Shown here: positions 465-64,000 of the stretch, piece after piece
How positions within the stretch are numbered: position 1 is the first letter of the stretch
Layout of the letters: every line of letters starts with the position of its first letter
Source of the DNA: a virus
Lineage: Duplodnaviria > Heunggongvirae > Uroviricota > Caudoviricetes
DNA: 64,000 bases
Direction: 5' to 3' (one strand)
IMG/VR virus record: IMGVR_UViG_3300017963_000223
The notes under the pieces: generated by a model
Told to the model about the DNA's origin: nothing
The model's database searches: none
What the model saw: the letters and a program-made list of their open reading frames with translations, nothing else
Program-made: the position numbers and the translations under genes

Positions 465-538
465 TCGGGTGTAGCTCAGCCTGGAAGAGCGCGTGGTTTG
501 GGACCATGATGTCGCAGGTTCAAATCCTGTCACCCGGA
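465..538 (+). tRNA. tRNA-Pro (anticodon TGG)
   Basis: Manual cloverleaf: acceptor TCGGGTG/CACCCGG, D-stem GCTC/GAGC, anticodon stem CGTGG/CCATG with loop TTTGGGA (TGG), T-stem GCAGG/CCTGT with TTCAAAT loop, discriminator A. Confidence 0.8.
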
Positions 539-740
539 CTGATAACATGAACAAAGCCTTCTGCCAATGCGGTCGAGAGTGTGAGTGGCCTGAGAGCCAC
601 GACTACGCCCTCTGCCGCTGTAGCAGAACGGTTGAGCCTCAGACGGACATGGAGCGGGCAGACACCCGCCAGATGCACGAAGCGAGGCTACAGCGGATTT
701 ATGATGCGTCTCCGTTTCACTTTCGCCTCAAAGGATAACC

Positions 741-11703: not shown

Positions 11704-11776
11704 GCTAGTGTAGCTCAATTGGCAGAGCCGTTGATTTGTAATCAACAGGTTAAAGGTTCGAGTCCTTTCGCTAGCT
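11704..11776 (+). tRNA. tRNA-Thr (anticodon TGT)
   Basis: Manual cloverleaf: acceptor GCTAGTG/CGCTAGC, D-stem GCTC/GAGC, anticodon stem GTTGA/TCAAC loop TTTGTAA, T-stem AAAGG/CCTTT with TTCGAGT loop. Confidence 0.8.
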
Positions 11777-11816
11777 CTACTGTTTGACAGTATCGGACTT
11801 TCTTTGGAGATTTCAC

Positions 11817-32431: not shown

Positions 32432-33049
32432 CTATCCGTGAAGGAACCGCATGATCGAGGCGTACAGCTTTGCTGTCGCAATGCAGTCGGCTAAAGCGTC
32501 GTGTGCATTGTCGAGTGTGATGTCGAACTTCTTACACAAGTCTCCAAGGTTGACGAAGCCGAAGGGCGGTTTCCGGCCATGCCACGAATACAGGTCGTCG
32601 ATGCTGGACGCTAGCGTCATCGTGTCTCTGGCTGTCGACTGCCACAACTCGTTGAACCCCTCCATACCGAGCCAGGGAATGAGCATCGAACGCTCAAACG
32701 CCCAGTTGTGTGCCAGAGGAATCAGTCGCTTTTTGTGCGGCAGATTGAGCTTCCGGAACCAGTCGTGGAACAGTTCGATCGCTTGCTCCTGAGAGGGGCA
32801 GCCTTCAAGGCTTTCCAGTGTGATGCCGTGCTTTCGAGTGGCCCCAGCATTGATCCTCTCTGGGTGATCCGGATAGATGTTCATGTAGAAGAACCTCTTC
32901 TCCGGGTCCGGTTCGAGATGCTGGTTGAGCGGCAGCACCGCGATCTGAATGATCTCATGCCACCCAGGCAGCGTGCCGGTCGTCTCCACATCCACTGCAC
33001 ACATACAGTGGCCCCATTGACTTTGTAGTCCTGGCATCACGGCCTCCAC
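32432..33049 (-). CDS. DnaQ-like DEDDh 3'-5' exonuclease
   Basis: Exo motifs AVDVETTG (I), HNWAFE (II), HDALAD (III). Confidence 0.65.
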   Translation of the reverse strand: MEAVMPGLQSQWGHCMCAVDVETTGTLPGWHEIIQIAVLPLNQHLEPDPEKRFFYMNIYPDHPERINAGATRKHGITLESLEGCPSQEQAIELFHDWFRKLNLPHKKRLIPLAHNWAFERSMLIPWLGMEGFNELWQSTARDTMTLASSIDDLYSWHGRKPPFGFVNLGDLCKKFDITLDNAHDALADCIATAKLYASIMRFLHG

Positions 33050-33777
33050 ATCGGGGCAAAGTATTGGGCAACAAGGGCGTCGAACGCCTCGCTGCGAGGG
33101 GCGTCCAATATGACGAATTTGATCTCCTTAGTTTCATCCTGACAGGGCGGGGCCTCGGGACCGATCGGGACGTCGAAGATTTCGCCACAGGCAACGCACT
33201 CTCGTCCATGGTCCGTCAGCCATGTGAAATCAAAGCCACACTTTGGGCATTCACCGTCTATGACTGCCTCATCCCACTCGAATTCAAGCTCACAAGTGTG
33301 TGTAAATTTGACGTCATCAAACGGGGAGATGTACCATGTTGAGTCTGGCGGATCACCATCGCACTCGGCAGCCCATCCTTCAACGGCCTTTTCGTCCTGC
33401 TTCTCCTCCTTGGCCTCCCGCTTCTTCTTCTCCTCGGCCCAGTGTTTGGCACATCCGGCCCAAATCTCATCGTCGCGAGCGGGCAGTTCGGGGTAGTTGA
33501 GTTCGAGCAGGGCACACATGTTCCACACCGCATGGGCGATGTGCAGACAGCCGGTGTCCGGGTCGTAGACTTCGCCGTTGAAGATGTAGTTCAGGTGGCG
33601 GAACATACTGTTCCAATACTCATCGTCCGGCTTGTTGCCTAGTCGCCAGTTGCCGTCATTGTACTTGATGGCTCCCATCTCTTTCACTCGGGCGATCGCT
33701 TCCGCCATTCTAGGGAAGCTCCGCATGAAGTAAGACATCATGGGCTTGTCGTCATTGAAACGTAAGGCTTCACTCAT
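33037..33777 (-). CDS. phage dNTP pyrophosphohydrolase-like (DUF5664-like) N-terminal domain protein with C-terminal zinc ribbon
   Basis: KYNDGNWRLG...HIAHAVWNMCALLE motif recalled from phage dATP/dGTP pyrophosphohydrolase family; CPKCG...CVACG. Confidence 0.4.
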   Translation of the reverse strand: MSEALRFNDDKPMMSYFMRSFPRMAEAIARVKEMGAIKYNDGNWRLGNKPDDEYWNSMFRHLNYIFNGEVYDPDTGCLHIAHAVWNMCALLELNYPELPARDDEIWAGCAKHWAEEKKKREAKEEKQDEKAVEGWAAECDGDPPDSTWYISPFDDVKFTHTCELEFEWDEAVIDGECPKCGFDFTWLTDHGRECVACGEIFDVPIGPEAPPCQDETKEIKFVILDAPRSEAFDALVAQYFAPMWRP

Positions 33778-39445: not shown

Positions 39446-39957
39446 GCGGCGTAGCCTTAGTACAGTTTTCCGATGTCGATCTGAAGACCTTGCTGCCTAT
39501 TGGCCGGGAGGCGTTCGATCGAAACCTTGCGGCCAATGCCGATAGCCAAGGGCATGAGCCTCCGTTGCATCACATGCTGTGCGTCGCAGGGATGAAGAAC
39601 CCGCAGGCGAAGACAGCCGAGGACACCCGGCCGTATGCCAACCTTTTCCACGCTGGCTTTCTGATCGTGTGCAACGATCGTGATGCTGCTGAAATCTTGG
39701 AGGTGGCGGGTATGCCGTCCGTCATGGTAGAGACAGTTGAGCGGGGATACGTCGCCCTCTTCATCTCAGGCTCGGTCGCACAGTGGCGGGAGGCCGTGCT
39801 GCGTGGCTGCCAGCCGGAGGTAAGCCGGGGCACCCGGCAGATCTACAACGGGGTCTATACGAAGTTCAAGTCAATGGGACTAGCCGGTCTGTTCAACGTG
39901 AAGTCCAAACCGAGCCGCCGCGACCAAACTTTCCTTTTGGAATACAAACCCTCTTGA
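39442..39957 (+). CDS. hypothetical protein
   Basis: ATG 39442 overlapping upstream stop; table ORF 39427 is extension. Confidence 0.45.
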   Translation: MSGVALVQFSDVDLKTLLPIGREAFDRNLAANADSQGHEPPLHHMLCVAGMKNPQAKTAEDTRPYANLFHAGFLIVCNDRDAAEILEVAGMPSVMVETVERGYVALFISGSVAQWREAVLRGCQPEVSRGTRQIYNGVYTKFKSMGLAGLFNVKSKPSRRDQTFLLEYKPS

Positions 39958-39986
39958 CACAAGCCACTCCGTATGGTATACTTGAG
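39954..39986 (+). promoter_or_regulatory. phage promoter copy 1: TTGACA-N17-TGGTATACTTGA
   Basis: TTGACA 39954-39959, TATACT 39977-39982; ATG of SNF2 gene at 39990 (leaderless-like). Confidence 0.6.
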
Positions 39987-42081: not shown

Positions 42082-42273
42082 ATGATAGTGTTCAAAAGAC
42101 CTGATGGTGTTCGATTCGCGATCGCCGCTCCCGATATTCGACAAGTTTTTCAACGGGCTGACCTTGTCTCATGTGACATTTTCTTCCTGGATTCCAAGAA
42201 AACATTACATACAGAAGTCGTCTCCGGTACATTCGACAACATCATAACTCGAATTGAAGAGAACACCGAATGA
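42082..42273 (+). CDS. small protein (63 aa)
   Basis: ATG with GAGG 4 nt upstream; stop overlaps next start. Confidence 0.35.
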   Translation: MIVFKRPDGVRFAIAAPDIRQVFQRADLVSCDIFFLDSKKTLHTEVVSGTFDNIITRIEENTE

Positions 42274-43463
42274 GATGTACAGCTACCACCTGCCCTGCGT
42301 GCGGCTCAAACGACGTTGAACTGTTGATTGACATGGGCGAGCAGCCGATGTCCCTTGTCGCGTTGGAGAAAGACCCACACCACTCCAAGGTGCAGGAGTG
42401 TTATCCTATCGTGATGCTAATCTGTCGAAACTGCACACACGTCTTCAATAGCGAGTACAAGAGCGAGAATGTCAAGTACACGGCCGCAGGCTGCCGCATG
42501 TTCAATGCTGGGTCTGGGTGGCAAGAGCATATCAACGATGTCTATCAAATGCTGCATCCGATCACGGCAGATGAGGCTCTTGATCTGGTAATTGAGATCG
42601 GGGCAGGTGACTGCGAGTTTCTTGCGGGTATTGACACTAAGGCCGGGAAGATCGCGGTCGATCCGTGCGAGTCGGTACTGAATGCCGCGAGGTATGGCTT
42701 CACATTCTATCGCGAGCACTTCGATCCGGTTCAGCACATCCCCAGAGGAGCGGGGAATGTGCTTCTTGTTTTGCGACATTTGCTGGAGCACTTTGAGCGT
42801 CCTCGCGACATCCTTGAAAGTATCGCCCGCGCCACCAAGGCTCGGCCTAACCCGTCCATCCTCTACATCGAGGTGCCGTCGTGTGAGAATGCTCTTCGCC
42901 GATGTCGCATTGAAGACTGGACCTACGAGCATCCACAGCACTTCACTGTAGGCAGCATGCGGGCTTTGCTCCGGTCAGCCGGGCTCGATCACTTCATCGT
43001 GTTGCCGAAGTATAGTGGTGAGGTTCTCTCAGTCATCGTGAAGATTGCACCGGAGGAGCCCCACGACTCCGACCTATGTACCGATCTTGTCCTTATGGAC
43101 TATGAGCGGATGGAGCAAAACATCGCACGAGAGATGGGCTGGATGCGTCATCATTCTCTCAACACGGTCTTCTGGGGCGGGGCGGGTAAGTCGGCGATGT
43201 TCATTCGCAAGTTCCACTTGCCGGAAGATGACACGACTGTCGTTGATAGTGATGAAGAGAAGTGGGGCATGTGCGTTCCCGGCACCGGCATCAAGATTCA
43301 GCCACCGAACATCCTTTATCATGTTCGGCCAGATTACGTCATCGCCACAACGTCGTGGCGAGCGGACGACATCCGAGACGAGATCGTTCGTGATGACATC
43401 CCATGTAAAACGCTCCTCAAATTTGAGGGCGGAGAATTGAGGGAGGTTCCTCTTGGCAGGTAA
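42270..43463 (+). CDS. SAM-dependent methyltransferase of the sugar C-methyltransferase type (N-terminal zinc ribbon + class I MTase + C-terminal domain)
   Basis: N-terminal CPACGS...QPMSL...CRNC zinc-binding motif, motif I VIEIGAGDCEF; architecture as in NDP-hexose C-methyltransferases (TylCIII-like). Confidence 0.65.
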   Translation: MRCTATTCPACGSNDVELLIDMGEQPMSLVALEKDPHHSKVQECYPIVMLICRNCTHVFNSEYKSENVKYTAAGCRMFNAGSGWQEHINDVYQMLHPITADEALDLVIEIGAGDCEFLAGIDTKAGKIAVDPCESVLNAARYGFTFYREHFDPVQHIPRGAGNVLLVLRHLLEHFERPRDILESIARATKARPNPSILYIEVPSCENALRRCRIEDWTYEHPQHFTVGSMRALLRSAGLDHFIVLPKYSGEVLSVIVKIAPEEPHDSDLCTDLVLMDYERMEQNIAREMGWMRHHSLNTVFWGGAGKSAMFIRKFHLPEDDTTVVDSDEEKWGMCVPGTGIKIQPPNILYHVRPDYVIATTSWRADDIRDEIVRDDIPCKTLLKFEGGELREVPLGR

Positions 43464-47436: not shown

Positions 47437-47468
47437 TTGACTTTCTGGCTCCATGTGGTATACTTGAT
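47437..47468 (+). promoter_or_regulatory. phage promoter copy 2 (TTGACT-N16-TGGTATACTTGA)
   Basis: -10 TATACT 47459-47464; RBS AGGAG then ATG 47482. Confidence 0.6.
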
Positions 47469-53297: not shown

Positions 53298-53329
53298 TTG
53301 ACATTCCCAAGTTTTGTGGTATACTTGAA
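53298..53329 (+). promoter_or_regulatory. phage promoter copy 4 (TTGACA-N16-TGGTATACTTGA)
   Basis: TATACT 53320-53325; RBS AAGGAG; ATG 53358. Confidence 0.6.
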
Positions 53330-54606: not shown

Positions 54607-54639
54607 TTGACAAATGGCATTTCGTATGATATACTTGAG
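54607..54639 (+). promoter_or_regulatory. phage promoter copy 5 (TTGACA-N17-TGATATACTTGA) upstream of tRNA-Asn
   Basis: TATACT 54630-54635; tRNA begins ~87 nt downstream. Confidence 0.55.
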
Positions 54640-54721: not shown

Positions 54722-54794
54722 TGTACAGTAGCTCAATGGGTAGAGCACCTGACTGTTAATCAGGTGGTTGCTGGTTCAAGTCCAGCCTGTACAG
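54722..54794 (+). tRNA. tRNA-Asn (anticodon GTT)
   Basis: Acceptor TGTACAG/CTGTACA, D-stem GCTC/GAGC, anticodon stem CCTGA/TCAGG loop CTGTTAA, T-stem GCTGG/CCAGC loop TTCAAGT. Confidence 0.8.
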
Positions 54795-54813
54795 CTAACC
54801 CTGGAGACCTGAG

Positions 54814-55597: not shown

Positions 55598-55630
55598 TTG
55601 ACAAACCGCTGCGAGTATGGTATACTTGTA
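55598..55630 (+). promoter_or_regulatory. phage promoter copy 6 (TTGACA-N17-TGGTATACTTGT)
   Basis: TATACT 55621-55626; RBS AAGGAGG; ATG 55645. Confidence 0.6.
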
Positions 55631-61828: not shown

Positions 61829-62137
61829 ATGCGAGAACAGTTGCTTGCCATGTTGAAGCCTTACATTTCTGACGTTGAACAATGCAACTCAGTTGTTGAG
61901 AAGCTAGTCGATCTCATCGAAGAACACCGTGAGTTGCAGGTTGAGATCGCCCGAGACGAAGGTTATGACTCAGGTCGGGCTGACGGCCTAGCTGAAGGCC
62001 ATGACGAAGGCTATGACGAAGGCTATGACGAAGGCTCTGACGAAGGCAAGGAGGAAGGCTACGACGATGGCTACACCAGAGGGTATAACCATGGATACGG
62101 TGAAGGCTACGACGACGGCATCGACGAAAGAATGTGA
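61829..62137 (+). CDS. highly acidic protein with (D/E)EGYD tandem repeats
   Basis: EGHDEGYDEGYDEGSDEGKEEGYDDGY...; encoded by 12-bp tandem repeats. Confidence 0.5.
   Translation: MREQLLAMLKPYISDVEQCNSVVEKLVDLIEEHRELQVEIARDEGYDSGRADGLAEGHDEGYDEGYDEGSDEGKEEGYDDGYTRGYNHGYGEGYDDGIDERM
61978..62095 (+). repeat. 12-bp tandem repeat (gacgaaggctat-like) array inside acidic-protein gene
   Basis: gaaggccatgacgaaggctatgacgaaggctatgacgaaggctctgacgaaggc... Confidence 0.6.
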
Positions 62138-62150
62138 ATTTCTTTGTGAT

Positions 62151-62188
62151 TTGACTTGACAAACACCATCCCGTAGGGTATACTTTAG
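62151..62188 (+). promoter_or_regulatory. phage promoter copy 7 (tandem TTGACT/TTGACA -35, N17, GGTATACTTTA)
   Basis: TATACT 62179-62184; RBS GTAGGAGA; ATG 62201. Confidence 0.6.
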
Positions 62189-62200
62189 TAGGAGACCAAC

Positions 62201-63037
62201 ATGCTTGACAAACTAGTGAACAAACATGGGCAGGTGATTGAAGGCTCAGAAAACTATGAGCCCAAAAAGACACACCTTGACCTATTCAAGGCGCTGGCTG
62301 CTCAGCCTGATGACACTCGTGGTATGAAGCAGGCTTTGCTGATTCTATCGACGCCTCGTTGCGGGTCGACTCTCTTCTGCGAGGCGCTGAACAACACTCG
62401 TCAGCTTGGCGTCGCTGACGAGTGGCTGAACTATGAATACTTCTCTGCCTGGGCGGCCGTTCTTGATTTGAACCACTTTGACTTGAACGAGTACATGACC
62501 TGGGTTTCCCGAAAAACGATGCGAAACACCGGGGTGCTGGTGATCAATTGGCATGTCGGTCAGATCATCGCCATGAACCATGATTTTGGTCTCGGCCTTC
62601 AATCGATAGACTTCAAGAAGATCGTCTATCTGACACGACGAGACAAGATTGCTCAGGCTGTGTCTCTTGCGAAAGCGATTGTCACGAACCAATTCCGCTC
62701 GTATGAGGAAGCCGAGGAGAGTCCAGACAAGGAAGGCGGGCTTTCGCTTCCGTCGATCGCCAAGTCCTTGTACAGTATCACCGATTTCGACGGTGTCGTC
62801 CGCACCCACTTCAGCAAGGAGATTGACTACACCTGGGACTATGAGGACTTCAGACAACTCGGCAGCGACACAGTTCCGCCGCACGAAAGCTATGAGATCA
62901 TCTTGAGAGAATTCGGCGGCGTCCCTCAACCTTGCTATTCGGCAGGCAATTTGAAGAAGCAGGGAGGTGATGAAAACGCGCAAGCTGCCGCCCGCTTTCT
63001 GAAATACATCACAGGAGAGCCCAATGAGAACGATTGA
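62201..63037 (+). CDS. Stf0-like sulfotransferase
   Basis: N-terminal LLILSTPRCGSTLFCEALNN...G..DEWLNYEYF matches Stf0/sulfotransferase PAPS-binding P-loop region (..RSGSTLL.E.L...G..GEP.E.F). Confidence 0.55.
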   Translation: MLDKLVNKHGQVIEGSENYEPKKTHLDLFKALAAQPDDTRGMKQALLILSTPRCGSTLFCEALNNTRQLGVADEWLNYEYFSAWAAVLDLNHFDLNEYMTWVSRKTMRNTGVLVINWHVGQIIAMNHDFGLGLQSIDFKKIVYLTRRDKIAQAVSLAKAIVTNQFRSYEEAEESPDKEGGLSLPSIAKSLYSITDFDGVVRTHFSKEIDYTWDYEDFRQLGSDTVPPHESYEIILREFGGVPQPCYSAGNLKKQGGDENAQAAARFLKYITGEPNEND

Positions 63038-64000
63038 AAAACTGTCGCCCACCAGCCTGCATTTGTGGGAAAGAGACCGCGACGGCTTCTACGTGAAGTA
63101 CCTCTCTGAGGCGCCCAAACCGTGGGAGCCTCAAACCGAGGCGATGACAATTGGTAGTGCGTTTGACGCCTTCGTTAAGTGCTCGCTGCATTATCACTTG
63201 TTTGGCCACGACGGCGACGGTGAGTACGATCTCAAGACGCTACTGGAGAAGCAGTGCCAGGTCGCTGAATTGAGGCCTTGGGCTTGGGAAGCTGGCAAGT
63301 ACGCCTTCGACTGTTACCGCACATGGGGTTGTTACGACGAACTGCTTAGCGAGTTGCAACAGAGCGAGGAAGACCCTCAGTTTGAGTTTGAGCTACGCGG
63401 AACAGTCGGGGGCGTGCCCCTTGTCGGCAAGCCTGACTTGTGGTATCGCAAGACTATCCAAGTCATCTATGACTGGAAGGTGATGGGCTTCTGCTCACGC
63501 CATCCACAGTCTCCGAAAAAGTTCTACAAGACATGCCGTGATTGCTGGGGCGATGATCGTGCGAAACCGACTCGCGGTTTCAAAGGCAAGCCTTTGGCGC
63601 ACAAAGGCTACAAGGAGATCGACCACCACGGCCATAAGATCGGTGGCCACTTCCTTGAAGAGGTCGACAAGAAGTGGGCGGATCAAATCGCGATCTACGG
63701 GTGGATGTCCGGTGTGTCAGTTGGAGATGAAGACACTGTGGTGGGTATCGACCAACTGGCCTGCAAGCCGTCACCTGACCCTGACAAAGAACGGTTCCCG
63801 CTTATCCGGGTGGCTCAGCATCGTTGTCGTATTTCGCATGTCTATCAGCAGCAGCTTGTCGCCCGCTTGCAAGATTGCTGGAATCAGATTCAGTCCGGGT
63901 GGATTTTCCCCGACTTGTCCCGTGAGGAAAGTGACGAGCGGTGCGAAATGATGGACTTGCAGCTTCAGGGCGACGCCGCTGGATTCAGTAAAGAGGCTGT
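63024..64000 (+). CDS. PD-(D/E)xK family nuclease (Cas4/RecB-like), 3'-truncated by window end
   Basis: Open frame from ATG 63024 to window end; motif GKPDLWYRKTIQVIYDWKV; multiple Cys. Not in ORF table because no stop in window. Confidence 0.5.
   Translation, partial: MRTIEKLSPTSLHLWERDRDGFYVKYLSEAPKPWEPQTEAMTIGSAFDAFVKCSLHYHLFGHDGDGEYDLKTLLEKQCQVAELRPWAWEAGKYAFDCYRTWGCYDELLSELQQSEEDPQFEFELRGTVGGVPLVGKPDLWYRKTIQVIYDWKVMGFCSRHPQSPKKFYKTCRDCWGDDRAKPTRGFKGKPLAHKGYKEIDHHGHKIGGHFLEEVDKKWADQIAIYGWMSGVSVGDEDTVVGIDQLACKPSPDPDKERFPLIRVAQHRCRISHVYQQQLVARLQDCWNQIQSGWIFPDLSREESDERCEMMDLQLQGDAAGFSKEA

What the first reader, a model, noticed from the sequence alone, without database searches (positions are those of the whole stretch)
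62201..63037. Stf0-like sulfotransferase expressed from a dedicated strong phage promoter
The N-terminus matches the PAPS-binding motif region of Stf0-type carbohydrate sulfotransferases. Sulfotransferases are very rare in phages. The gene has its own consensus promoter copy, suggesting deliberate high expression. The target (glycan, small molecule or nucleic acid) is unknown.
Basis: partly seen in the sequence, partly recalled or inferred. Interest (0 to 1): 0.65.

Follow-up and report, generated by a model that had tools for sequence, protein, structure and literature searches.

The report
Phage-encoded Stf0-family sulfotransferase gene
An uncultured 94-kb tailed phage carries an apparently intact sulfate-transferring enzyme of the bacterial Stf0 family as a conserved gene at the head of a replication-phase operon; the enzyme class is well supported, but what it sulfates, and why a phage needs it, is unknown.

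The parts
62156..62184 (+). Sigma-70-type promoter-like site, TTGACA-17 nt-TATACT. The consensus of the copies is cTTGACa-N16/17-TGGTATACTTgA (this copy reads GGGTATACT).
   Evidence: Found (4 exact copies against 0.08 expected). One search finds 6 copies in the window and a copy at or just upstream of the sulfotransferase unit in L005, L006, L011, L013, L015 and L016. Promoter function is inferred, not shown.
62191..62194 (+). Shine-Dalgarno GGAG, 6 nt before the ATG
   Evidence: Read directly from the sequence.
62201..63037 (+). Stf0-family sulfotransferase CDS, 278 aa
62351..62371 (+). Codons for T51-P-R-C-G-S-T57, the 5'-phosphosulfate-binding (PSB) loop with Arg53
   Evidence: P52, R53, G55 and S56 are invariant in 43 homologues and in 10 phage and bacterial copies. 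The loop aligns to Stf0 'QRSGST'. Arg replaces Lys in the Stf0 PSB loop according to PMC11625862.
62420..62422 (+). Codon for E74, the candidate general base
   Evidence: Invariant. It aligns to residue 56 of the 1TEX chain, which is native Glu36 after the 20-residue tag. That Glu36 is the proposed base of Stf0 is from my own recollection of Mougous et al. 2004. PMC11625862 says the base is His or Glu in this superfamily.
62636..62677 (+). Codons for R146-A159, the 3'-phosphate-binding (3'PB) strand-turn-helix RRDKIAQAVSLAKA
   Evidence: R146, Q152, S155 and A159 are invariant. R146, V154 and S155 align to Stf0 R143, V151 and S152, which PMC10638397 names as 3'PB residues.
63024..64000 (+). 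Downstream gene whose start overlaps the sulfotransferase stop. It encodes a 346-aa PD-(D/E)XK nuclease and runs past the window end to about 64064.
   Evidence: The full gene is read in L001 10824-11864. Twelve of its listed homologues carry PF12705 PDDEXK_1. It sits downstream of the sulfotransferase in L005, L006, L011, L012, L013, L015 and L016.
39954..39982 (+). Sister promoter copy, before the SNF2-type helicase gene
47437..47464 (+). Sister promoter copy (16-nt spacer)
53298..53325 (+). Sister promoter copy (16-nt spacer)
54607..54635 (+). Sister promoter copy, upstream of tRNA-Asn
55598..55626 (+). Sister promoter copy

Best explanation
The gene encodes a soluble, cytoplasmic O-sulfotransferase of the Stf0 family that is probably catalytically competent.

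Shown: family membership by sequence and by predicted fold, and invariance of the residues that bind the donor. These are the PSB loop with Arg53 and Ser56, and the 3'PB motif with Arg146 and Ser155. The Glu aligned with the Stf0 general base (Glu74) is also invariant.

Inferred mechanism: the enzyme binds host-made PAPS. APS, a weaker donor for Stf0 itself, is not excluded. Glu74 deprotonates an acceptor hydroxyl, which attacks the sulfuryl group in-line while Arg53 stabilises the transition state. The products are a sulfate ester and PAP.

Inferred expression: host sigma-70 RNA polymerase starts at a near-consensus promoter (62156-62184). This is the last of six copies spread through the replication and nucleotide-metabolism region. 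The sulfotransferase is the first cistron of a roughly 7-kb polycistronic unit: nuclease, GNAT acetyltransferase, N6/N4 DNA methyltransferase, dCMP deaminase, MazG and others. It would therefore be made together with the replication genes, not with the virion genes.

Inferred acceptor, the weakest step: a host-derived carbohydrate-type hydroxyl, such as an envelope glycan or glycolipid precursor or a soluble sugar. Three observations point that way. Every characterised enzyme of this family branch acts on sugars. The nearest cellular relatives sit among glycosyltransferases. The phage enzyme's non-catalytic surface diverges much faster than the neighbouring replication enzymes, as expected for adaptation to host-specific acceptors. 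The plausible benefit is remodelling of the infected cell's surface or solutes, for example masking a receptor against superinfection or against loss of progeny on cell debris.

The confidence of 0.6 is for the explanation as a whole: about 0.9 for the enzyme class, about 0.5 for a carbohydrate-type acceptor, and about 0.3 for the surface-remodelling role.
For: Enzyme class:
- Pfam PF09037 scores 44.3 bits against GA 22.
- The profile of 43 homologues hits 1TEX Stf0 at E 7.9e-23.
- The AlphaFold2 model has pLDDT 94.8 and pTM 0.91.
- P52, R53, G55, S56, E74, R146, Q152 and S155 are invariant down to 22% identity.
- The 3'PB residues match those named for Stf0 in PMC10638397, and the Arg-type PSB loop matches PMC11625862.

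No signal peptide or membrane segment is visible in the sequence.

Selection:
- 96 homologues were found.
- The representative library holds 635 clusters at E<=1e-3, of which 23 are at E<=1e-30.
- The gene is kept at the same place in six diverged relatives.

Carbohydrate acceptor:
- Bacterial relatives L017 and L018 lie next to GT4 and GT41 glycosyltransferases. L018 also carries type I secretion genes, a giant Calx-beta protein and an Inositol_P (CysQ-type PAP phosphatase family) gene.
- Identity of the sulfotransferase and GNAT to the window phage is 67/67, 45/42, 47/41, 42/35, 36/39 and 37/37% across six relatives. Ligase, nuclease and methyltransferase run from 83/82/83 down to 66/55/65%.

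Promoter. Absence of a terminator.
Against: - No acceptor is identified, and no experiment exists.
- Pfam found no glycosyltransferase, sugar-nucleotide enzyme or PAPS-synthesis gene in the part of the phage examined (window 1-64 kb plus 9 kb beyond). One methyltransferase with domains typical of sugar C-methyltransferases is the only possible exception.
- All immediate neighbours are DNA or nucleotide enzymes, which could point to a nucleic-acid-related role instead.
- The host is unknown. The only hint is that two related contigs were binned into Planctomycetota MAGs. Whether the host makes PAPS is therefore unknown.
- Faster divergence could simply reflect weaker constraint.
- Conserved gene order across the whole block means that adjacency says little about function.
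- The protein is not an orthologue of trehalose 2-sulfotransferase.
Confidence: 0.6

Rival explanations
1. The enzyme acts on nucleic acid or nucleotides. It might sulfate a hydroxyl on a modified base, a sugar of phage DNA, or a nucleotide signalling molecule. The sulfate could be a new protective DNA mark, a leaving group for further substitution (as sulfation is used by CurM/OLS, retinol dehydratase and LGS1), or a means of anti-defence.
Against: No sulfated nucleic acid or nucleotide is known. No base hydroxymethylase or DNA glycosyltransferase was found. The relative in L015 carries an ordinary ThyX, which suggests normal thymidine. The whole region keeps its gene order as a block, so adjacency is weak evidence. 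In L007 the sulfotransferase is not next to the nuclease. The nearest cellular relatives are in glycan contexts. The enzyme diverges faster than the DNA enzymes around it.
Confidence: 0.1
2. The enzyme works with the co-transcribed GNAT acetyltransferase as a small-molecule modifying pair. Together they would inactivate anti-phage or toxic metabolites, such as aminoglycoside-like or glycosylated natural products, inside the infected cell.
For: The sulfotransferase and the GNAT are kept together in all six relatives examined with enough flanking DNA and diverge at the same fast rate. The GNAT has weak, sub-threshold similarity to AAC(3)-XI and RimI. Antibiotic-tailoring sulfotransferases (StaL, Cpz8) share the fold.
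Against: The GNAT hits are far below their cut-offs (17-24 bits against 86-300). A nuclease gene separates the two. O-sulfation is not known as a resistance mechanism. No data exist on the host's chemistry.
Confidence: 0.07
3. The enzyme is an auxiliary metabolic gene that redirects host sulfur flux. It would drain PAPS or produce PAP (an inhibitor of oligoribonuclease-type enzymes) or a sulfated solute such as sulfotrehalose. The donor side would then matter more than the acceptor.
For: Virome studies list sulfotransferases among auxiliary metabolic genes (PMC8290583, PMC10580990). Stf0 itself makes a soluble sulfated disaccharide. One bacterial relative has a neighbouring gene of the CysQ PAP-phosphatase family, which suggests PAP turnover matters there.
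Against: No companion sulfur-assimilation genes (cysC, cysD, cysN, cysH) were seen in the region examined. Auxiliary metabolic genes are usually patchy, whereas this gene is fixed in the clade. The protein is not orthologous to trehalose 2-sulfotransferase.
Confidence: 0.08
4. The enzyme O-sulfates tyrosines of the phage's own acidic (D/E)(D/E)G-Y repeat protein (61829-62137). The result would be a hyper-anionic protein acting as a DNA or heparin mimic.
Confidence: 0.03
5. The protein is not a sulfotransferase but a P-loop kinase-like protein, or an inactive relic, that only resembles Stf0.
Confidence: 0.03

Closest known systems
Stf0 (Mycobacterium smegmatis/tuberculosis trehalose 2-sulfotransferase, PDB 1TEX; Pfam PF09037)
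   Different: Only about 20% identical. It scores 30.6 bits against the 400-bit equivalog cut-off for trehalose 2-sulfotransferase. It has a roughly 45-residue N-terminal extension. Ala stands at the position of Stf0 Trp154. It is phage-encoded, and there is no sulfolipid gene context (pks2, papA, mmpL8). The acceptor is unknown.
Cellular 'Stf0 family sulfotransferases' of Pseudomonadota, Actinomycetota and Cyanobacteriota (e.g. Caenimonas, Ramlibacter, Kordiimonas MAGs; loci L017, L018)
   Same: These are the nearest cellular relatives (about 25-38% identity). They share all catalytic motifs and the N-terminal extension.
   Different: They are embedded in glycosyltransferase, type I secretion and PAP-phosphatase neighbourhoods, not in a phage replication module. 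None is closer than about 38% over partial segments in one genome for each of 185,579 species. None is characterised.
NodH / LpsS-type rhizobial sulfotransferases (PDB 9VKI; COG4424, the label JGI gives these proteins)
   Same: PAPS-dependent, soluble carbohydrate sulfotransferases with an RxG-type PSB loop. The homologue profile gives a weak match to 9VKI (E 6e-4).
   Different: No Pfam Sulfotransfer_3 (PF13469) hit for the window protein at E<=10. The similarity is confined to the 3'PB region. NodH acts on lipo-chitooligosaccharides within a nod operon.
Sulfotransferases already reported in phages and viruses (Sulfotransfer_3 in viral genomes related to OM43 phages and in Synechococcus phages S-SRM01 and S-SCSM1; giant-virus sulfotransferases)
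   Same: Virus-encoded proteins with the PAPS sulfotransferase fold and unknown acceptor (PMC10580990: 'biological function ... remains unclear'). They appear as structural matches in BFVD.
   Different: They belong to other Pfam families and have no detectable sequence similarity to this protein (no tblastn hit in GenBank phages). They are sporadic accessory genes, whereas this one is fixed at one position in a phage clade.

Membership tests
Stf0 sulfotransferase family (Pfam PF09037) | Whole-protein score above Pfam's gathering threshold | tested here: met
   44.3 bits against 22, E 2e-11. 94 of 96 homologues carry PF09037.
Stf0 sulfotransferase family (Pfam PF09037) | 5'-phosphosulfate-binding strand-loop-helix with Arg in place of the usual Lys | tested here: met
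   The loop is T51-P-R-C-G-S-T57. P52, R53, G55 and S56 are invariant. It aligns to Stf0 QRSGST. The feature is described in PMC11625862.
Stf0 sulfotransferase family (Pfam PF09037) | 3'-phosphate-binding motif with conserved Arg and helix Ser (Stf0 R143, S152) | tested here: met
   R146 and S155 are invariant and aligned to R143 and S152. The residues are named in PMC10638397.
Stf0 sulfotransferase family (Pfam PF09037) | Catalytic general base (Glu36 in Stf0) | tested here: met
   E74 is invariant and aligned to chain residue 56, which is native Glu36. The role of Glu36 is from my own recollection of Mougous et al. 2004, which could not be read here.
Stf0 sulfotransferase family (Pfam PF09037) | Stf0-type three-dimensional fold | tested here: met
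Stf0 sulfotransferase family (Pfam PF09037) | PAPS-dependent sulfuryl transfer activity | not testable with these tools
   Needs a recombinant enzyme assay.
Trehalose 2-sulfotransferase (NCBIfam NF047724 equivalog; sulfolipid-1 pathway) | Equivalog-level sequence score | tested here: not met
   30.6 bits against a cut-off of 400.
Trehalose 2-sulfotransferase (NCBIfam NF047724 equivalog; sulfolipid-1 pathway) | Sulfolipid biosynthesis gene context | tested here: not met
   The neighbours are a nuclease, a GNAT, a DNA methyltransferase, a ligase and nucleotide enzymes.
NodH/Sulfotransfer_3 (PF13469) | Match to the PF13469 profile or to the NodH structure sequence | tested here: inconclusive
   No PF13469 hit at E<=10. 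The homologue profile hits 9VKI NodH only weakly (E 6e-4, 3'PB region).
Tyrosylprotein sulfotransferase | Closest structural or sequence neighbour is a TPST or RaxST-type enzyme | tested here: not met
Phage 'moron'/stand-alone accessory gene with its own promoter and terminator | Own promoter and own terminator, with patchy presence among related phages | tested here: not met
   A promoter is present. There is no terminator, and the stop overlaps the next gene. The gene is present at the same position in all six relatives examined with enough flanking DNA.

The most novel reading that the evidence does not exclude
The sulfotransferase is fixed at the head of a nuclease, GNAT and DNA-methyltransferase cassette in a whole phage clade. 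It may act not on a glycan but on nucleic acid or a nucleotide. It could install a sulfate ester on phage DNA or on a modified base, as a mark or as a leaving group. Alternatively it could sulfate a host immune signalling nucleotide. Either would be a new class of phage nucleic-acid chemistry or of anti-defence.
Probability: 0.1. Interest if true: 0.9.

Novelty: new member of a known kind. Interest (0 to 1): 0.4.

Why it matters
Virome surveys list phage-encoded sulfotransferases, but none has an assigned acceptor or role. Here the enzyme appears intact, the predicted structure is confident, and the gene is a fixed, promoter-proximal part of the replication-phase programme of a whole uncultured phage clade (contigs of about 87-105 kb). 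That implies a selected function during infection rather than a passenger gene. The protein is small and soluble, so expression and acceptor screening should be tractable. Identifying the acceptor would show whether phages use sulfation to remodel host surfaces, host metabolites or, more provocatively, nucleic acids. The promoter family it shares with five other sites also gives a ready map of early and middle transcription units in this phage group.

Tried and rejected
- Single-sequence searches gave nothing: PDB sequences, PHROGs, tblastn against GenBank phages and megablast of the region. Only profile and fold methods linked the protein to solved structures.
- I considered that the gene was a recently acquired moron or auxiliary metabolic gene. 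I rejected this because relatives that seemed to lack it (the contigs of P0108 and P0145) turned out to carry diverged copies at the same place.
- I considered a functional pairing with the 346-aa downstream gene. That gene is a PD-(D/E)XK nuclease more widely spread than the sulfotransferase, and it is not adjacent in L007, so no specific link is claimed.
- I considered tyrosine sulfation of the upstream acidic repeat protein. This is weakened because that family occurs in 77 GenBank phages without the sulfotransferase, and the gene lies before the promoter.
- I looked for phage-encoded glycosyltransferases, PAPS-synthesis genes or PAP phosphatase genes in window 1-64 kb plus 9 kb beyond. None was found.
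- I tried to infer the host. The only hint is the two Planctomycetota MAG labels on related contigs. No prophage copy exists in one genome for each of 185,579 species.
- The original Stf0 structure paper could not be read.

Full report
**Observation.** The ORF at 62201-63037 (+) is present as described. It has an ATG start, encodes 278 aa, and has a GGAG Shine-Dalgarno 6 nt upstream. The long antisense ORF at 62345-63052 is a shadow of it. A TTGACA-17-TATACT site lies at 62156-62184.

**Source of the window.** The window is part of a 93,682-bp metagenomic contig (ENA ERZ27256798 k141_859899). The identical protein occurs on nine contigs from ENA, JGI and Logan samples. The contig is a tailed phage:
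- gpA-type large terminase and a P22-type coat protein
- a tape-measure protein
- family A DNA polymerase, a DUF5906 primase-helicase, an SNF2 helicase and a ParB-like protein
- an exonuclease
- a ligase, an NT5C nucleotidase, dCMP deaminase and MazG

It has no nucleotide-level relative in 50,697 GenBank phage records. Its terminase is at most 26% identical to anything there.

**What the protein is.** Pfam places it in PF09037 'Stf0 sulphotransferase' at 44.3 bits (cut-off 22, E 2e-11), with the best stretch at residues 46-92.

The metagenome protein search returned 96 homologues, 94 of them with PF09037. The exhaustive representative search found 635 clusters at E<=1e-3, 134 at E<=1e-10 and 23 at E<=1e-30.

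A profile of 43 homologues matches the sequence of PDB 1TEX (M. smegmatis Stf0 with trehalose) at E 7.9e-23, and NodH (9VKI) weakly at 6e-4. The single sequence alone found nothing.

**Catalytic apparatus.** Across 43 sequences down to 22% identity the invariant residues are P52, R53, G55, S56, G70, E74, N77, Y98, R146, Q152, S155, A159 and Y214. The same residues stay invariant when further phage copies and two bacterial copies are added.

- T51-P-R-C-G-S-T57 is the 5'-phosphosulfate-binding loop. Arg in place of the usual Lys is the stated peculiarity of Stf0 (PMC11625862).
- R146, V154 and S155 align with Stf0 R143, V151 and S152, which PMC10638397 names as 3'-phosphate-binding residues. 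Stf0 W154 is Ala here.
- E74 aligns with residue 56 of the tagged 1TEX chain. This is native Glu36, and the 20-residue offset is confirmed by R163 corresponding to R143.
- My recollection, which could not be verified here, is that Glu36 is the proposed general base. PMC11625862 says only that the base is His or Glu in this superfamily.

The protein is not, however, an orthologue of trehalose 2-sulfotransferase (30.6 bits against the 400-bit equivalog cut-off).

**Promoter.** The exact pattern TTGACA-N17-TATACT occurs four times in the window against 0.08 expected. Allowing 16-18-nt spacers and one mismatch gives six sites, at 39954, 47437, 53298, 54607, 55598 and 62156. All are on the + strand and all lie in the replication and nucleotide-metabolism half of the genome. 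Their consensus is cTTGACa-N16/17-TGGTATACTTgA; most copies carry TGG before TATACT, whereas the 62156 copy reads GGG and the tool scores it as lacking the TG. None occurs in the structural region or in the 9 kb after the sulfotransferase.

A copy sits at or shortly before the sulfotransferase in every relative examined:
- L005 at 7953
- L013 at 5910
- L006 at 7689
- L011 at 6672
- L015 at 4272
- L016 at 4704

That positional conservation across 36-68% protein identity is good comparative support that the site is functional.

The promoter is not dedicated, for four reasons:
- The next gene starts at 63024, inside the sulfotransferase's last codons.
- No + strand terminator-like site follows.
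- The + strand block continues for about 18 genes and 7.3 kb.
- In L006, L011 and L016 a 92-93-aa membrane protein (plus an 80-aa protein in L016) lies between promoter and sulfotransferase, and in L015 a PhoH gene does.

There is also no terminator between the upstream gene and the promoter, so read-through from earlier promoters is likely.

**Genomic context and evolution.** The 346-aa downstream protein is a PD-(D/E)XK nuclease. Twelve of its listed homologues carry PF12705, and the D...(D/E)xK signature is visible in its sequence. A GNAT acetyltransferase and an N6/N4 DNA methyltransferase follow.

tblastn of the cassette proteins against all fetched loci shows the order ligase, sulfotransferase, nuclease, GNAT, methyltransferase (ligase not held for L013) in six independent relatives (L005, L006, L011/L012, L013, L015, L016). 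Two of these first appeared to lack the sulfotransferase because the word-indexed search had missed their diverged copies.

The gene is therefore a fixed, syntenic component of this clade of contigs of about 87-105 kb, not a sporadic insertion. Many short contigs also carry both the sulfotransferase and the nuclease, judging by matching contig lengths.

In L007, where the neighbours differ, a 36%-identical copy follows RNR, dCMP deaminase, ThyX and an MT-A70 methylase, and is not next to the nuclease.

No copy closer than about 38% over partial segments exists in one genome for each of 185,579 bacterial and archaeal species. The phage clade is thus distinct from cellular genes and is not a prophage gene. 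A pattern-limited scan of IMG/VR found two loci.

The sulfotransferase and the GNAT are consistently the fastest-diverging genes of the cassette. Their identities to the window phage run from 67/67 down to 36/39 and 37/37%. Ligase, nuclease and methyltransferase run from 83/82/83 down to 66/55/65%. The catalytic motifs nevertheless stay invariant.

**What it most likely does.**
- *Shown:* family, predicted fold, donor-binding and catalytic residues, conservation, and the presence and conservation of the promoter motif.
- *Inferred:* PAPS-dependent O-sulfation in the cytoplasm of the infected cell, with expression alongside the replication genes. APS is a poorer donor for Stf0 itself (PMC10638397) and is not excluded.
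- *Inferred more weakly:* the acceptor is a host-derived carbohydrate-type hydroxyl.

The reasons for the last inference are as follows. Characterised enzymes of this branch (Stf0; NodH, LpsS and KpsS according to PMC11625862) sulfate sugars. The nearest cellular relatives sit among GT4 and GT41 glycosyltransferases; in L018 they sit also with type I secretion genes, a giant Calx-beta protein and a gene of the CysQ PAP-phosphatase family. Rapid divergence outside the catalytic core fits adaptation to host-specific acceptors.

Pfam found no phage glycosyltransferase or PAPS-synthesis gene in the 73 kb examined. Both donor and acceptor would therefore come from the host. A role in remodelling the envelope, by masking a receptor or excluding superinfection, is plausible but untested.

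**Rivals.**
1. *A nucleic-acid or nucleotide target.* This is suggested only by the DNA-metabolism neighbourhood. Nothing positive supports it: no hydroxymethylase or DNA glycosyltransferase was seen, and a relative has an ordinary ThyX.
2. *A small-molecule detoxifying pair with the GNAT.* The GNAT's similarity to AAC(3) and RimI is far below the cut-offs.
3. *A PAPS/PAP or sulfated-solute metabolic role.*
4. *Tyrosine sulfation of the acidic repeat protein at 61829-62137.* The idea is attractive because that protein's Tyr residues are flanked by Asp/Glu and Gly. However, the protein belongs to a Yae1_N/FliH-type GX3-repeat family present in 77 GenBank phages that lack the sulfotransferase, and it lies in the preceding transcription unit.
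5. *Not a sulfotransferase at all.* The invariant sulfotransferase-specific motifs and the margin of the Stf0 match argue against this.

**Comparison with what is known, and novelty.** The protein works like Stf0 and passes every sequence and fold test for the Stf0 family. It fails the tests for the trehalose 2-sulfotransferase orthologue group and is at best a distant relative of NodH.

Sulfotransferases of other families have been noted in phages and giant viruses, with function 'unclear' (PMC10580990, PMC8290583, PMC11309003, PMC11625862; BFVD matches). 'Very rare in phages' therefore holds for this family in sequenced isolates, not for the fold in general.

**Verdict.** This is a new member of a known enzyme kind in an uncommon but not unprecedented setting. 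Its most notable features are its fixation in an uncultured phage clade and its place at the start of a promoter-driven replication-phase operon. Interest is moderate (0.4). The unexcluded nucleic-acid reading (about 10%) would be of high interest if true.

Noticed in passing
window 61829-62137 (+): A 102-aa very acidic protein with period-4 (D/E)(D/E)G-Y/H repeats. It matches Pfam Yae1_N (31.4 bits, GA 27.5), gives sub-threshold FliH hits, and matches phrog_4785. Homologues occur in 77 GenBank phages, mostly Streptomyces phages, one of which is annotated 'flagellar assembly-like protein'. It is conserved 0-2 kb upstream of the sulfotransferase in relatives. Function unknown.
   Followed up: partly
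window 39954, 47437, 53298, 54607, 55598, 62156 (all +): A family of six near-consensus promoter-like sites, cTTGACa-N16/17-TGGTATACTTgA. They are confined to the replication and nucleotide-metabolism half of the genome and are conserved in related phages. They probably define the early/middle transcription units. The copy at 54607 precedes tRNA-Asn (54722-54795).
   Followed up: partly
window 33037-33777 (-): A 246-aa protein with PF18909, the N-terminal domain of dATP/dGTP diphosphohydrolase (75.9 bits). From memory, this resembles the MazZ nucleotide-pool enzyme of phages with 2-aminoadenine DNA. It lies next to an RNase_T exonuclease and the DUF5906 primase. No PurZ-like gene was seen in the region examined.
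   Followed up: no
window 42270-43463 (+): A 397-aa protein with Methyltransf_13, Methyltransf_23 and Methyltransf_14 domains. From memory, this architecture is typical of NDP-sugar C-methyltransferases. It lies between an SNF2 helicase and an exonuclease. Substrate unknown.
   Followed up: no
window 465-539, 11704-11777, 54722-54795: Three phage-encoded tRNA genes: Pro-TGG, Thr-TGT and Asn-GTT.
   Followed up: no
L001 11861-12334 (just beyond the window end, about window 64061-64534): A GNAT acetyltransferase co-transcribed with the sulfotransferase. It diverges at the same fast rate as the sulfotransferase across relatives (35-67% identity, against 61-83% for the neighbouring methyltransferase).
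   Followed up: partly
L016 2747-2911: A related phage encodes a 54-aa protein with the Acb2/Tad1 hairpin domain (an anti-CBASS/anti-Thoeris sponge family), just upstream of its ligase gene.
   Followed up: no
L011, L012 and proteins P0029, P0102, P0111: Contigs of this phage group were binned into two different NCBI MAGs labelled Planctomycetota. This is a weak hint at the host, or a binning artefact.
   Followed up: no
L018 4483-10114: In a Pseudomonadota MAG the cellular Stf0-family relative sits between a GT41 glycosyltransferase and a gene of the CysQ PAP-phosphatase family (Inositol_P). A 1711-aa Calx-beta protein and type I secretion genes are beside it. This may be a system for sulfated glycosylation of a secreted adhesin.
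   Followed up: no
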